Origin: Rubripirellula sp.
GTDB taxonomy: Bacteria; Planctomycetota; Planctomycetia; Pirellulales; Pirellulaceae
Reading direction: 5' to 3'
DNA: 54,837 nucleotides
NCBI GenBank assembly: GCA_022425745.1
Contig: JAKMEW010000086.1
Location: forward strand, 1-54,837
This document shows positions 51,016-54,837 of this stretch, piece by piece. Both the position numbers and the translations under genes were made by a program. The notes under the pieces are model-generated. The model was not told where the DNA came from. It saw only the letters and a program-made list of their open reading frames with translations, and ran no database searches. Numbering within the stretch: position 1 is the first letter of the stretch; each line of letters begins with the position of its first letter.

Positions 51016-52293
51016 ATGAAACCGAGCAAAACCATGAACTCGCGAATCCAAATCATTGGCATTGGCGATGACGGAATGGACGGCCTGACACCCTATTCCC
51101 GAGATCTGATTCATTCAGCAGAAGTAATCGTTGGGTCACGAAGCCTGATTGAAATGGTGTCGCCCACTGAGGCGGAATGTATCACCATTGGCCATGACCT
51201 GACAGAACTCTCCAAGACGATTTCAATGCTCGGAGATCGCCCAACCGTAATGCTGGCCAGTGGCGATCCTCTGTTTTATGGAATCACGCGTTATCTCGCA
51301 GATGCAATTGGCAAAGAACATTTTGAAATTGTCCCGCACGTCAGCAGCATGCAACTCGCTTTTGCACGAGTGAAAGAAAGCTGGGACGACGCATACCTTA
51401 CCAACCTCGCTACCCAGCCACTTGATCGGGTTGTTGAAAACATTCGTACCGCTGAGCGAGTAGGCTTGTTCACCACAGACGAAATCTCTCCCTCGGTCGT
51501 TGCTGAATCATTGCTGGATCGTCGGATCGACTACTTTACCGCCTACGTTTGCGAAAACCTCGGAACACCTGACGAAGTGGTCACTCAGGGTGATTTGCAA
51601 TCCATCCGGGATCAGAAGTTTGGATCGATGAACGTGATGGTACTCGTCCGGCGATCGGGAAGTGCAGATCGGCCAAGTGGTAGCAAACAACGACGGCTAT
51701 TTGGCAACCCTGACGACCTATTTATCCAGTGTCGTCCAAAGCGAGGATTGATCACTCCGTCGGAAGTGCGTTGCATTGCCTTGGCTGAAATGCAAATCCA
51801 TCGAGACAGCACCGTTTGGGACGTTGGTGCGGGCAGTGGTTCTTTGGCCATTGAAGCCGCCTCTCTAGCATCAGAGGGGAAAGTTTTTGCCATCGAGATG
51901 GACGCAGAAGACTACGGGATGATGATTGAAAATGCCAAAATGTTCGATGTTCCCACACTTGTTCCCATTCACGGGCAAGCACCAGATGCCTGGAAAGAAC
52001 TCCCGGATGCTGATGCAATCTTTGTCGGCGGAAGTGGACGAATGGTACCGGATCTCGTTCGAAAAGCCGTGATGAGATTAAAAATCGACGGTCGTATCGT
52101 GGTGAATGTTTCAAGCCCTGATAATTTGGTTGCGGTTCAAGCCGAATTAGAAAAAGCTGATGTACAACCTGAAGTGCGAATGATCAATATCGCGCGTGGG
52201 CAATATCAACTCGACCGCGTACGGTTCGATGCTCTGAATCCGACATTTTTGATCGTAGGTCATCGACTCAAAACTAAACCGAAATCCAATTAA
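51016..52293 (+). CDS. cbiET: Bifunctional precorrin-6Y C5,15-methyltransferase (decarboxylating), CbiE-CbiT/CobL
   Basis: CbiE half: IIGIG, LASGDPLFYG, PHVSSMQLAFAR. CbiT half: GLIT..EVR, WDVGAGSGSLAIE, DAIFVGGSG. Confidence 0.92.
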   Translation: MKPSKTMNSRIQIIGIGDDGMDGLTPYSRDLIHSAEVIVGSRSLIEMVSPTEAECITIGHDLTELSKTISMLGDRPTVMLASGDPLFYGITRYLADAIGKEHFEIVPHVSSMQLAFARVKESWDDAYLTNLATQPLDRVVENIRTAERVGLFTTDEISPSVVAESLLDRRIDYFTAYVCENLGTPDEVVTQGDLQSIRDQKFGSMNVMVLVRRSGSADRPSGSKQRRLFGNPDDLFIQCRPKRGLITPSEVRCIALAEMQIHRDSTVWDVGAGSGSLAIEAASLASEGKVFAIEMDAEDYGMMIENAKMFDVPTLVPIHGQAPDAWKELPDADAIFVGGSGRMVPDLVRKAVMRLKIDGRIVVNVSSPDNLVAVQAELEKADVQPEVRMINIARGQYQLDRVRFDALNPTFLIVGHRLKTKPKSN

Positions 52294-52432
52294 TCACTCC
52301 ATCAGGCTTTCAGCCACCGACGCGAAAAGAAATGCGGGTGATCTAGTTGCTTATGTAAGAAAGAGCTTGCAACTTACTCGAGAGTCGGTGGCTGTTACTC
52401 AACAGACGTAGCTCCGAACAAAGAGGCGACTT

Positions 52433-53290
52433 ATGCACATTCGTAAAGCTGTCATCACTGCCGCCGCACCAGGACAAAACCGACTGCCACTGCAACAGTT
52501 AGTCGATCGCAGTGGCGAAGAAAAAACCGCCTTGCAGTTGGTACTGGAAGAGTGTTGGTCATCGGGGATTGAAGACGTCTGTGTCGTGATTTCCCCCGGT
52601 GACGAACAAGCATTTGTTGCCGCGACTGGTCAGCACAAAGGAAATGTTCGTTTCCTCACTCAAGATCAACCACTTGGCTACGCCCATGCCTTGCTGCTGG
52701 CCAAGGGATTTGTTGGGAACTCGTCTTTTCTGCATCTCGTTGGTGATCATCTTTATCTCAGTGACAACTCACAGACTTGTGCATCTCAACTGCTTTCGGT
52801 TGCCGCTGAATCTGGCTGCACTGTCTCTGCAGTTCAAGCAACCAGAGAAAACAATCTGCCGTACTTTGGAATCGTTAGTGGACGACCTCTTCCCAACCAA
52901 CGGGGAGTCTATGAGGTTGATACGGTTCAAGAAAAGCCAACACCCACCATCGCAGAACAAACCTTAGTTACACCTGGATTACGAGCAGGCCACTACCTAG
53001 GATTCTTTGGCATGCACGTCTTGACCAAGCAAGTGCTAACCATCTTGGAAGAGTTGCCCGAGCGGCATGCGGATCGAGCAAAAACGTTAGCTGATGCTCT
53101 GAATATTTTGCCCGCGAGAGAGAAGTATCTTGCTTTTCAGGTGCAGGGACATCGCTGCAATCTGGGTATGAAATATGGGTTACTGCGGGCTCAACTAGCG
53201 ATCGGACTCTCCGGTCGTGATCGGGATCGCATTCTGTCCGACCTGATTGAACTGTTGGCAAATCGTCACGAAGAAGGGGCAGCACAGTGA
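52433..53290 (+). CDS. GalU-like sugar-phosphate nucleotidyltransferase-family protein (degenerate GxGTR loop)
   Basis: [38 protein letters not shown]. Confidence 0.8.
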
Positions 53291-54837
53291 ATCATCTTAT
53301 TGAAGTAATTATCTCCGATGATGACTCCATTAGGAATCAATCACTTGAATCACTTTGCGATGGTCTCGACACCCGTGACTTGCTTCAACGCGCTTCGGAA
53401 CTGGATCAATTTAGACGCGAATCAGGAAACCTCTACCACCGCGTACGGGCACTGTTCTTTATTGCGGCGATTTACCGTTACTACTTACCTAAGGTTGTAT
53501 CACAGAAAAAGACCACAAAGATTCCTTATGCCGGATACCAGCATCTATTGAAACGTCGCTTCGTGGAGGCGATTGATCTCTTCCTCGAAACCCAAGAGTT
53601 AACAGGTCCTAGCGATGGGCTCAGCAGTGCTTTAGCGGACGCCTACCATCAACTTGCGTTCCAGACACTTGCCGATCAAGTTCGACGCAGTGTGCGAACG
53701 GTAAAGGGAAATCAGTGGATGTTTCGCCTCGGGCACCCAGCCGATCACCCTCTACGCATTCGGCCAGAATTACTTCAACGAGGTAACCGAGAGAATTCGC
53801 GTCCGACACTGCGGGAACAAACAGCAGTGCGGATGGACTTTTCCCACAGCGCGTGGAGTGACATTTTCTTCCTCGGCATGGATTTTCCACAGGGAGCGAG
53901 AGTCCTCAATGCATCGATCGACTTAGCTGTATGTGGTCGAGACAAAGAACCTAAACCACCTATTGAAACATATCTAAGGGTTATTGATGAACCCGTAATT
54001 CGTTTAGTGAGCGTGGATTTAGGTGCCTCCGCCGAGCTTCATCGAATCTCTGAGGTATTCGACTTTGCAATTGATTATCTAGGCCTCCTTAAAGCGGCGA
54101 TTGTCGCTTCGGGAATCGTTCCACCGGGTTTGGACGGCTCAAATCAAACAATCCAAGAACTCCTGCGTGAACTCGTTGGTCCAGGAAACGGCTTGGAACT
54201 TGTTAGTCAGATCAATGACATCCCAAAAGGCTCTCGGCTTGCGGTCTCGACCAATCTTTTAGGCTCACTGATTTCAATTTTGATGCGTGCGACCGGGCAG
54301 ATTTCACAACTTTCAGGTCCGCTGACCGAACAGGACCGACAACTCGTTGGAGCTCGGGCGATTCTCGGCGAATGGATTGGTGGAAGCGGCGGCGGCTGGC
54401 AAGACTCTGGAGGTGTTTGGCCGGGCATCAAACTCATCGAAGGAGTGATCGCTGGGACCCAAGACGCAGAGTTTGGTATCAGCCGAGGTCGCTTGATGCC
54501 AAGTCATCATCTTTTAGGGGCTGATGAAGCGTCCGCAGAGACGCGACAAAAGCTCCAAGACAGCTTAGTACTCGTGCATGGCGGAATGGCTCAAAATGTT
54601 GGACCAATCTTGGAAATGGTTACGGAGCGTTATCTACTCAGAAGCGAAGCTGAGTGGCTTGGACGAGAACATGCCATTGGAATCCTTGACCAAATTCTAG
54701 ATGCAATGCGTCAGGGCGATATCCAAGAGATAGGCAGACTAACGACTGAAAACTTCGAAGGCCCATTGCAAACAATCATTCCTTGGGCGACGAATCGATT
54801 TACTGACCTGATGATTCAAAAATGCAGGGAACACTAC
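53287..54837 (+). CDS. Partial large protein with a GHMP (fucokinase-like) sugar-kinase domain; continues beyond the window
   Basis: Not in the ORF track. GTG 53287 overlaps the upstream TGA (GTGA) and the frame is open for 517 codons to the edge. Motifs [46 protein letters not shown]. Confidence 0.8.

What the first reader, a model, noticed from the sequence alone, without database searches (positions are those of the whole stretch)
52433..54837. Coupled degenerate GalU-like gene plus fucokinase-like GHMP protein: candidate uncharacterised sugar-activation or salvage system
Seen: the two genes overlap by GTGA. The first keeps GalU landmarks (KAVI.AA, Q..PLG.AHA, GD, EKP), but its GxGTR pyrophosphorylase loop reads AAPGQNR. 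The second, missed by the ORF track, has about 175 aa of helical N-terminus, then [31 protein letters not shown] and GGGWQD. Known: fucokinase/Fkp and HddA-type GHMP kinases carry PxRxDxxGGWxD, PxGSGLGxS and GGGWQDQ; kinase plus pyrophosphorylase pairs convert a free sugar to an NDP-sugar; GalF is a precedent for a low-activity GalU paralog. Inference: a two-subunit system for an unknown sugar in which both nucleotide-binding loops are altered (GLG to RLA; GxGTR lost), suggesting a different phosphoryl donor or substrate, or a non-catalytic subunit. I recall homologs carrying a C-terminal UDPGP-like domain, but that part is outside the window and unverified.
Basis: partly seen in the sequence, partly recalled or inferred. 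Interest (0 to 1): 0.7.

Follow-up and report, generated by a model that had tools for sequence, protein, structure and literature searches.

The report
Sugar-activating fusion enzyme with disarmed partner
The window holds a small GalU-like gene that has lost its catalytic loop and the first half of a 1104-residue gene joining a fucokinase-like domain to a eukaryote-type UDP-glucose-pyrophosphorylase-like domain; this widespread, apparently unstudied pair likely turns a still unidentified sugar into a nucleotide-sugar, with the small protein likely serving as a non-catalytic regulator.

Summary
Observation confirmed. The second gene runs off the contig, continues on contig C268 (join bridged by an independent contig) and totals about 1104 aa: helical domain, FKP-like GHMP domain, then a eukaryote-type UGP domain with intact catalytic residues. 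All FKP kinase catalytic residues are kept; the odd loop [10 protein letters not shown] is fixed (positions 313, 315-322 in 68 of 68). The GalU-like gene sits upstream in 91 of 95 genome loci but is not obligate (absent from 16 metagenome loci with 1 kb or more upstream). Trees suggest the order: fusion first, Gly-to-Arg loop change next, then recruitment of an intact GalU-like partner (9 of 136 still carry Arg and Lys), then a single deletion that disarmed it. So the two altered loops are separate events. No third gene is conserved; canonical GalU coexists in 8 of 50 genomes. Best reading: sugar to sugar-1-phosphate to NDP-sugar in one chain, partner a product sensor. Sugar, donor and binding are untested. 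I found no paper; this scan noted the module earlier on at least ten other genomes.

The parts
52421..52426 (+). purine-rich stretch AAGAGG, likely ribosome-binding site of gene 1
   Evidence: read from the sequence; function inferred
52433..53290 (+). GalU-fold partner gene, 285 aa, short-loop (likely non-catalytic) form
   Evidence: PF00483 E 3e-12; TIGR01099 78 bits against a cut-off of 327; model pLDDT 93, best folds are GalU structures, Z 27.9 and 27.7
52460..52507 (+). shortened nucleotide-binding loop (residues 10-25), 8 residues shorter than in GalU and in intact partners; the GxGxR Arg and the PK Lys are not kept
   Evidence: alignments and loop census
53273..53279 (+). purine-rich stretch GAAGGGG inside gene 1, likely ribosome-binding site of gene 2
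   Evidence: read from the sequence; function inferred
53287..53290 (+). GTGA overlap: start of gene 2 and stop of gene 1 (likely translational coupling)
53287..54837 (+). first 517 codons of a gene of about 1104 aa (helical domain + GHMP kinase-like domain + linker + UGP-like domain); the rest lies on contig C268
53287..53811 (+). N-terminal helical domain (residues 1-175); part of it superposes on the three-helix linker of FKP
   Evidence: model; alignment of model 3-589 to 9IIT 490-949, 442 residues, against 352 for the kinase-only chain; linker described in PMC11982464 section 7
53830..53862 (+). sugar-binding motif R182...W190-S-D192 (FKP R592, W599, D601)
   Evidence: R182, W190, D192 in 68 of 68; alignment to FKP; roles from PMC11982464
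54223..54252 (+). phosphate-binding loop [10 protein letters not shown] (FKP PAGSGLGTSS): Gly to Arg317, Gly to Ala319; metal ligands S321 and T322 kept
   Evidence: positions 313 and 315-322 identical in 68 of 68, K314 in 67
54370..54405 (+). E362...GGGWQD373 with the catalytic base (FKP E751, Q761, D762)
   Evidence: 68 of 68
54819..54837 (+). 19 bases shared with the end of contig C268, where the reading frame continues for 593 codons

Best explanation
The large protein likely activates a free sugar in two steps within one chain, its GHMP domain likely transferring a phosphate from ATP to carbon 1 and its C-terminal UGP-like domain likely coupling the sugar-1-phosphate to a nucleotide, while the small GalU-like protein, which has lost its catalytic loop, likely binds the nucleotide-sugar and regulates the enzyme. 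Shown: the domain order, both folds, the conserved active-site residues, the pairing and the loop deletion. Inferred: both activities, ATP as donor, the partner's role and any physical complex. The sugar is not identified. My single best guess is a D-gluco/galacto-configured pyranose (D-glucose first, about 0.3), because both the UGP domain and the partner descend from UDP-glucose enzymes; an L-fucose-type sugar, suggested by the kinase pocket, is second (about 0.15). UTP is the likely nucleotide, but the uracil-reading Gln of eukaryotic UGPs is not evident, so the base is open.
For: Kinase: R182, W190, D192, S321, T322, E362, Q372, D373 match FKP R592, W599, D601, S719, S720, E751, Q761, D762 and are identical in 68 of 68 sequences; in FKP, E751A and D762A are inactive and W599A and D601A lose more than 3000-fold (PMC11982464). 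The GHMP domain is the most conserved part: 171 of 415 columns near-invariant. Transferase: fold matches eukaryotic UGP and AGX at Z 26-31, sequence matches UGP best (E 8e-25); G739, G741, R743, K752, H889, N919, D921, R954, G956, E969, N986 and K1080 are all present in the genome's own C268 frame; H889, R954, G956, E969 and N986 align with the Arabidopsis and fungal UGP positions that correspond to T. brucei H192, K256, G258, E281, N303 (PMC3270307); K1080 to K377 is by motif reading. Partner: keeps Q77, G82, D105, E167, K168 in 75 of 75 but lacks the loop whose Arg binds pyrophosphate in this fold (PMC9168903); short forms are one clade (SH-aLRT 100) nested among intact forms; it is dispensable in some lineages, as a regulator could be. 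Kinase-plus-pyrophosphorylase fusions of this logic are established (FKP; zebrafish GKUP).
Against: No activity has been measured. The two pockets point to different sugars: FKP makes beta-L-fucose 1-phosphate and its pyrophosphorylase does not take D-glucose 1-phosphate, whereas UGP takes alpha-D-glucose 1-phosphate. FKP T602 is Ile here and W190 is lost in the deepest members. The phosphate loop has two Gly replaced and is modelled with low confidence (block 311-320, pLDDT 64). There is no conserved transporter, regulator or glycosyltransferase nearby: 3 of 106 neighbours scanned are sugar-nucleotide related, unusual for a salvage system. The module is patchy (9 of 201 genomes of the phylum, 19 of 24 of the genus). 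Partner binding is inferred from gene order only.
Confidence: 0.55

Rival explanations
1. HddA-like route: the GHMP domain phosphorylates carbon 1 of an already phosphorylated sugar (for example a hexose 6-phosphate), a phosphatase removes the distal phosphate, and the UGP-like domain adds the nucleotide; K314, R317 and H187 would hold the extra phosphate.
For: Inositol-monophosphatase-family and ROK domains are fused to the module in giant proteins (P0258 both, P0270 ROK); an inositol monophosphatase lies three genes downstream in L139 and a PHP phosphatase directly follows the kinase-only form in L162; stand-alone relatives of the partner sit beside an IMPase-family gene in 2 of 5 loci, one with a GHMP kinase and a ROK protein.
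Against: No phosphatase is conserved beside the main clade; the giant fusions string together many unrelated domains; phosphohexomutases are present in 41 of 41 relatives, so no bypass is needed; W190/D192 resemble FKP rather than the HddA-like GGGSD/GGGTD motif.
Confidence: 0.13
2. The remodelled loop reflects a different phosphoryl donor (pyrophosphate, polyphosphate or another NTP); with pyrophosphate, the PPi released by the UGP-like domain would be reused by the kinase, giving NDP-sugar from sugar for one NTP.
For: Two glycines of the triphosphate loop are replaced and fixed, with two basic residues in the loop; the change arose once; the two domains stay fused in nearly all members and even in permuted order (P0350); members occur in anaerobic lineages and an oxymonad.
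Against: Metal ligands, catalytic base and the C-terminal glycine loop are kept as in ATP-using FKP; I recall no PPi-dependent GHMP kinase; the deepest clade keeps GSGL.
Confidence: 0.12
3. The module is these organisms' ordinary UDP-glucose pyrophosphorylase (a GalU replacement); the GHMP domain and the partner only sense sugar and product.
For: No full-length GalU was found in the window's genome or in any of the 20 module-bearing genomes among 41 relatives, while 5 relatives without the module have one; in a 201-genome draw the 9 module genomes and 23 GalU genomes do not overlap. Databases name it UTP--glucose-1-phosphate uridylyltransferase.
Against: About one overlap was expected by chance in that draw, so zero is uninformative, and 169 of 201 have neither; 8 of 50 module-bearing genomes carry a canonical GalU at E below 1e-79; the kinase domain keeps every catalytic residue and is more conserved than the UGP domain; the names are automatic.
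Confidence: 0.12
4. The short partner is still catalytic, either with Arg/Lys supplied by the large protein or in a reaction that needs no pyrophosphate site, so the pair makes or exchanges two different nucleotide-sugars.
For: Strong purifying selection; sugar- and base-binding residues invariant; 9 of 136 partners have an intact loop, so the ancestral pair had two candidate transferases; one kinase-only locus relies on the partner alone (L162).
Against: All 117 parsed short forms lack the Lys, Arg is variable (29 of 75), and a second deletion of about 26 residues removes a helical subdomain; the partner is missing in several lineages.
Confidence: 0.08

Closest known systems
FKP, bifunctional L-fucokinase/GDP-fucose pyrophosphorylase (Bacteroides fragilis; PDB 9IIT, 9IIP, 5YYS)
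   Same: Closest kinase by sequence and fold (E 5e-24; Z 19-20); same catalytic and most sugar-binding residues; helical linker partly shared; kinase and pyrophosphorylase in one chain.
   Different: About 20% identical; domain order reversed; the transferase is a eukaryote-type UGP domain, not GFPP; loop GSRLAVST instead of GSGLGTSS; extra partner gene; 72-75 bits against the family cut-off of 721; one genome (G014) has both a true FKP and the module.
Eukaryote-type UDP-glucose pyrophosphorylase (PF01704; PDB 7PPR, 2ICX, 3GUE) and its relatives AGX and USP
   Same: Fold (Z 26-31) and phosphate- and sugar-binding residues.
   Different: Fused behind a kinase; ends before the C-terminal beta-helix; longer nucleotide loop (GSRWTQGAGVxK); an insertion of about 40 residues; the uracil-binding Gln is not evident (invariant S819-x-G821 there; unresolved).
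Bacterial GalU and its paralogue GalF
   Same: Partner's best folds are GalU structures (Z 27.9); Q..P.G, GD and EKP kept.
   Different: Loop deletion with loss of Arg/Lys, second deletion, family-specific insert after EKP; far below both cut-offs; descends from a separate GalU-like subfamily, not from GalF (GalF itself was not in the tree).
Non-catalytic pyrophosphorylase subunits GMPPA and KONJAC
   Same: Inactive paralogue beside an active nucleotidyltransferase, acting as regulator (PMC9168903 passages).
   Different: Those pair with a close paralogue through a beta-helix; here the partner is bacterial GalU-type, the active domain eukaryote-type, and neither has a beta-helix; binding untested.
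Zebrafish GKUP (glucuronokinase with putative pyrophosphorylase)
   Same: A bacterial-type nucleotidyltransferase domain of very low activity placed before a GHMP sugar kinase (PMC3938481 passages).
   Different: One chain without a UGP domain; known substrate glucuronic acid; no direct sequence comparison was made.

Membership tests
GHMP kinase superfamily | GHMP two-domain fold | tested here: met
   Model of the 97%-identical relative P0001: Foldseek 9IIP E 4e-17, TM 0.80; Z 16.0 to mevalonate kinase, 14.5 to galactokinase
GHMP kinase superfamily | catalytic Arg, catalytic Asp and metal-binding Ser pair | tested here: met
   R182, D373, S321, T322 in 68 of 68
GHMP kinase superfamily | consensus loop PxGSGLGSS | tested here: not met
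   [10 protein letters not shown]; no PF00288 hit for the window protein; deep relatives have GSGLAVST and weak PF00288 hits
GHMP kinase superfamily | ATP-dependent phosphoryl transfer | not testable with these tools
   needs an assay
FKP (fucokinase/GDP-fucose pyrophosphorylase) | N-terminal GFPP domain (PF07959) before the kinase | tested here: not met
   only PF01704, C-terminal; a true FKP scores PF07959
FKP (fucokinase/GDP-fucose pyrophosphorylase) | score above the NF009948 cut-off of 721 bits | tested here: not met
   75 bits
FKP (fucokinase/GDP-fucose pyrophosphorylase) | fucose-site residues W599, D601, T602, Q761, D762 | tested here: inconclusive
   four of five kept, T602 is Ile, one residue inserted
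eukaryote-type UGP (PF01704) | fold and Pfam score above cut-off | tested here: met
   45 bits against 22; Z 30.8, rmsd 3.2 over 341 residues to 7PPR
eukaryote-type UGP (PF01704) | phosphate- and glucose-binding residues (T. brucei H192, K256, G258, E281, N303, K377) | tested here: met
   H889, R954, G956, E969, N986, K1080; K1080 placed by motif reading
eukaryote-type UGP (PF01704) | uracil-binding Gln (T. brucei Q163) | tested here: inconclusive
   no conserved Gln in the expected strand end, but the alignments do not resolve the region
eukaryote-type UGP (PF01704) | [quoted passage not shown] | tested here: not met
   protein ends 24 residues after K1080; structural match stops near residue 400-420 of UGP chains
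GalU (TIGR01099), for the partner | GxGTR loop and PK lysine | tested here: not met
GalU (TIGR01099), for the partner | GalU fold with Q..P.G, GD, EKP | tested here: met
GalU (TIGR01099), for the partner | score above 326.8 bits | tested here: not met
   78.4 bits
GMPPA-like regulatory pseudoenzyme subunit | binds the active enzyme and its product | not tested

The most novel reading that the evidence does not exclude
A self-contained route from free glucose (or another common hexose) to its nucleotide-sugar in one polypeptide, using an anomeric hexose kinase whose remodelled loop takes the pyrophosphate released by its own C-terminal domain instead of ATP, and controlled by a recruited GalU that was turned into a product-sensing pseudoenzyme.
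Probability: 0.12. Interest if true: 0.85.

Novelty: new variant of a known kind. Interest (0 to 1): 0.52.

Why it matters
At least 8000 protein clusters at 90% identity belong to this family, in Planctomycetota, Verrucomicrobiota, Chloroflexota, Acidobacteriota, Armatimonadota, Ignavibacteriota, Bacteroidota, Omnitrophota and one protist, all named by automatic transfer. A one-chain route from a sugar to its nucleotide-sugar other than GDP-fucose would be a new salvage chemistry in bacteria and a useful biocatalyst, and the substrate screen is simple. The family also preserves the stages by which an active GalU-like enzyme was recruited and then disarmed (stand-alone, intact partner, short partner, lost), a directly testable series for how pseudoenzyme subunits arise.

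Tried and rejected
Complex prediction of partner with the large protein: tool not available, so binding is open. Protein-atlas search: not answered. Third conserved gene: none; clustering of 2861 open frames from 80 loci gave only the pair plus genus-level synteny, and 106 neighbours scanned (of 126 picked) were unrelated; the upstream cbiE/T-like and rhomboid genes follow the pair only in close relatives. GalU displacement: not upheld. Phosphoglucomutase bypass by gene absence: not upheld. Phage carriage: 56 pattern matches, none a relative. Plasmids: 1 record. Promoter and terminator scan of 52200-52500: nothing. The rest of the gene was missed by searching with the window's own ends alone until a relative was used. 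Expression: contigs of relatives (mostly 90-95% alike) in one seawater RNA run cover 23 of 30 bins over both genes; DNA may be in that run and no silent control was laid, so I do not count it. In one search three rows (L183, L187, L188) were wrong-strand frames and were ignored; one search used corrected frames. The state labels, 89 left 8 partners unclassified; the first tree run timed out. The N-terminal domain was not folded alone. Paper searches for catalytic-residue numbering of GalU and Leishmania UGP, and for AbGHMP, found nothing usable.

Full report
Observation. The window is the whole of contig C13 of a 5.06-Mb, 93%-complete genome; its nearest named relatives are Pirellulaceae such as an uncultured Rubripirellula at 80% identity. 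Gene 1 matches nucleotidyltransferases, GalU best but far under the cut-off. Gene 2 matches only FKP.

The missing half. A search for longer relatives returned 8000 of 8000 scored candidates, the best 120 nearly all 1100-1120 aa with PF01704. The nearest, P0001 (97% identical, 1104 aa), maps to C13 for residues 1-517 and to the end of contig C268 for 512-1103; the contigs share 19 bases, and one 229-base contig of a public run lies on both ends without mismatch. The model of P0001 (pLDDT 87.8, pTM 0.87) has a helical domain (1-175), a GHMP domain (176-590), a poorly conserved linker and a UGP-like domain (about 655-1104). Foldseek ranks FKP first; the C-terminal domain matches eukaryotic UGP and AGX at Z 26-31. 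Residues 3-589 align to FKP 490-949 over 442 residues, 90 more than to the kinase-only chain, so part of the helical domain appears to correspond to the three-helix linker that FKP has before its kinase (PMC11982464 section 7); I did not fold that domain alone.

Active sites. In 68 sequences (P0001 and 67 genome loci with frames of 1000 aa or more) R182, W190, D192, E362, Q372, D373, S321 and T322 are invariant. They align with FKP R592, W599, D601, E751, Q761, D762, S719, S720, which bind fucose, the metal and act as base (PMC11982464, passages and sections 6 and 10). T602 is Ile. The loop reads [10 protein letters not shown] against PAGSGLGTSS; it is fixed, not decaying, though modelled with low confidence. 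The GHMP domain is the best conserved part (68% mean identity, 171 of 415 near-invariant columns, against 61% and 110 of 444 for the UGP part). The UGP-like domain keeps its loop (LAAGVGSRW...K752) and H889, N919, D921, R954, G956, E969, N986, K1080, all present in the genome's own C268 frame; these correspond to the phosphate- and glucose-binding residues listed for T. brucei UGP (PMC3270307 passages; alignment to other UGPs). The uracil-binding Gln is not evident and the beta-helix is absent.

The partner. Its model (pLDDT 93) matches GalU best. Q77, G82, D105, H106, E167, K168 are invariant in 75 of 75. Its loop is 8 residues shorter than GalU's and lacks the Lys; a second deletion removes about 26 residues. 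In this fold that loop's Arg binds pyrophosphate (PMC9168903 passages); the role of the Lys I take from recall. Among 136 partners, 9 have an intact loop (GxGxRLYP...QK), 2 a full-length but substituted loop, 117 the short loop, and 8 could not be parsed. Five stand-alone relatives were found in genomes or loci without the large gene next to them, four with a readable intact loop. On a tree rooted on four canonical GalUs, stand-alone forms branch first, intact partners next, and 31 sampled short forms are one clade (quick search, SH-aLRT only).

Pairing. The partner lies upstream on the same strand in 91 of 95 genome loci (two pairs are duplicates); the 4 misses have under 150 bases upstream. 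It is not obligate: in 80 metagenome loci, drawn with a query biased to divergent members, 59 have it and 21 do not, 16 of these with 1 kb or more upstream; in a draw of 201 genomes of the phylum, 9 have the large gene, 7 with the partner adjacent and 2 with none found at E 1e-45 (93-94% complete). No third gene is conserved.

History. A tree of 32 kinase domains rooted on one FKP and three HddA-like proteins (long outgroup branches; wider tree) puts a clade with GSGLAVST (Omnitrophota and unnamed) as sister to all Arg-loop members (support 94/77); among these a group with no adjacent partner branches first, then intact-partner lineages, then the short-partner clade (100/97), inside which the partner was again lost from the locus. 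I did not run a clade test, so this order is likely, not shown. It implies that the fusion and the Gly-to-Arg change predate the partner, and that the window shows the most derived state. Odd members: giant fusions with ROK and inositol-monophosphatase domains, a permuted order in Ca. Kaelpia, a copy in the protist Blattamonas, and a kinase-only form flanked by a partner and a PHP phosphatase.

Mechanism. The simplest reading is sugar to sugar-1-phosphate to NDP-sugar in one chain, as in FKP but with the opposite order and an unrelated transferase, and a GalU-derived subunit that keeps the product-binding pocket but not the pyrophosphate loop, as GMPPA does for GMPPB. The sugar is unresolved: the kinase pocket is fucokinase-like, the transferase and partner are UDP-glucose-like. 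Lack of transporters, regulators or catabolic neighbours fits an intracellular, common substrate better than an inducible salvage of an outside sugar (inference). Tests against a plain GalU replacement: canonical GalU coexists in 8 of 50 module genomes (50 of 80 loci were given, chosen for diversity); a true FKP coexists in 1 of 20; the genome has a separate AGX-like PF01704 gene and a GalT-family gene.

Literature. Searches found no paper on this family; passages of the FKP phylogeny paper (PMC12732313) contain neither 'Planctomycet' nor 'UDP'; passages of PMC13608581 do not mention it. I saw passages of PMC3938481 and only the listing of PMC11228364. Subscription journals and all supplements were not seen; genome-wide mutant or proteome tables could bear on the function. 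Earlier notes of this scan describe the same module on at least ten other genomes; my reading was formed before I saw them and agrees, except that three say the partner is always present, which contradict.

Verdict. Real, widespread, strongly conserved and uncharacterised; a new variant of the kinase-pyrophosphorylase fusion with a likely pseudoenzyme subunit. Interest 0.52.

Noticed in passing
L190:2880-7665 (G168:C157): Operon of a ROK protein, a GHMP kinase most like PDB 9ULX 'AbGHMP' (E 3e-76), an inositol-monophosphatase-family protein and an intact stand-alone relative of the partner; L196 also has the phosphatase beside it. Looks like a separate uncharacterised sugar-activation operon.
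   Followed up: partly
L162:4621-8063: Three-gene variant: full-length but substituted partner, kinase-only protein of 570 aa without the UGP domain, and a HisJ-type PHP phosphatase.
   Followed up: partly
P0258, P0270, P0391, L104: Giant proteins of 2318 to over 4353 aa that contain the module together with ROK and inositol-monophosphatase domains; nearest named relatives are Omnitrophota.
   Followed up: partly
P0267: A divergent copy in the oxymonad Blattamonas nauphoetae with the Arg loop kept and the UGP loop altered; possible transfer from bacteria, untested.
   Followed up: no
P0350: Ca. Kaelpia imicola protein with the UGP domain first and the kinase last.
   Followed up: no
L016: A contig filed under Nitrosopumilus carries the module at 82% identity with Pirellulaceae-type neighbours; probably mis-binned. 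L081, filed under Ca. Kuenenia, likewise nests among planctomycete sequences.
   Followed up: no
L102:9035-13321: Hymenobacter volaticus plasmid has an intact-loop partner before a large gene that is in pieces and not listed in the annotation.
   Followed up: no
window 51016-52293: CbiE/CbiT-like fused precorrin methyltransferase gene directly upstream, after a rhomboid protease gene; linked to the pair only in close relatives.
   Followed up: partly
L139:4458-5504 and L174:9284-10309: In the partnerless clade two loci share the same downstream gene (weak hit to Npun_F2552 family).
   Followed up: no
201-genome draw of the phylum: 169 of 201 genomes had neither a canonical GalU match (E 1e-35) nor the module, so their source of UDP-glucose is unclear.
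   Followed up: no
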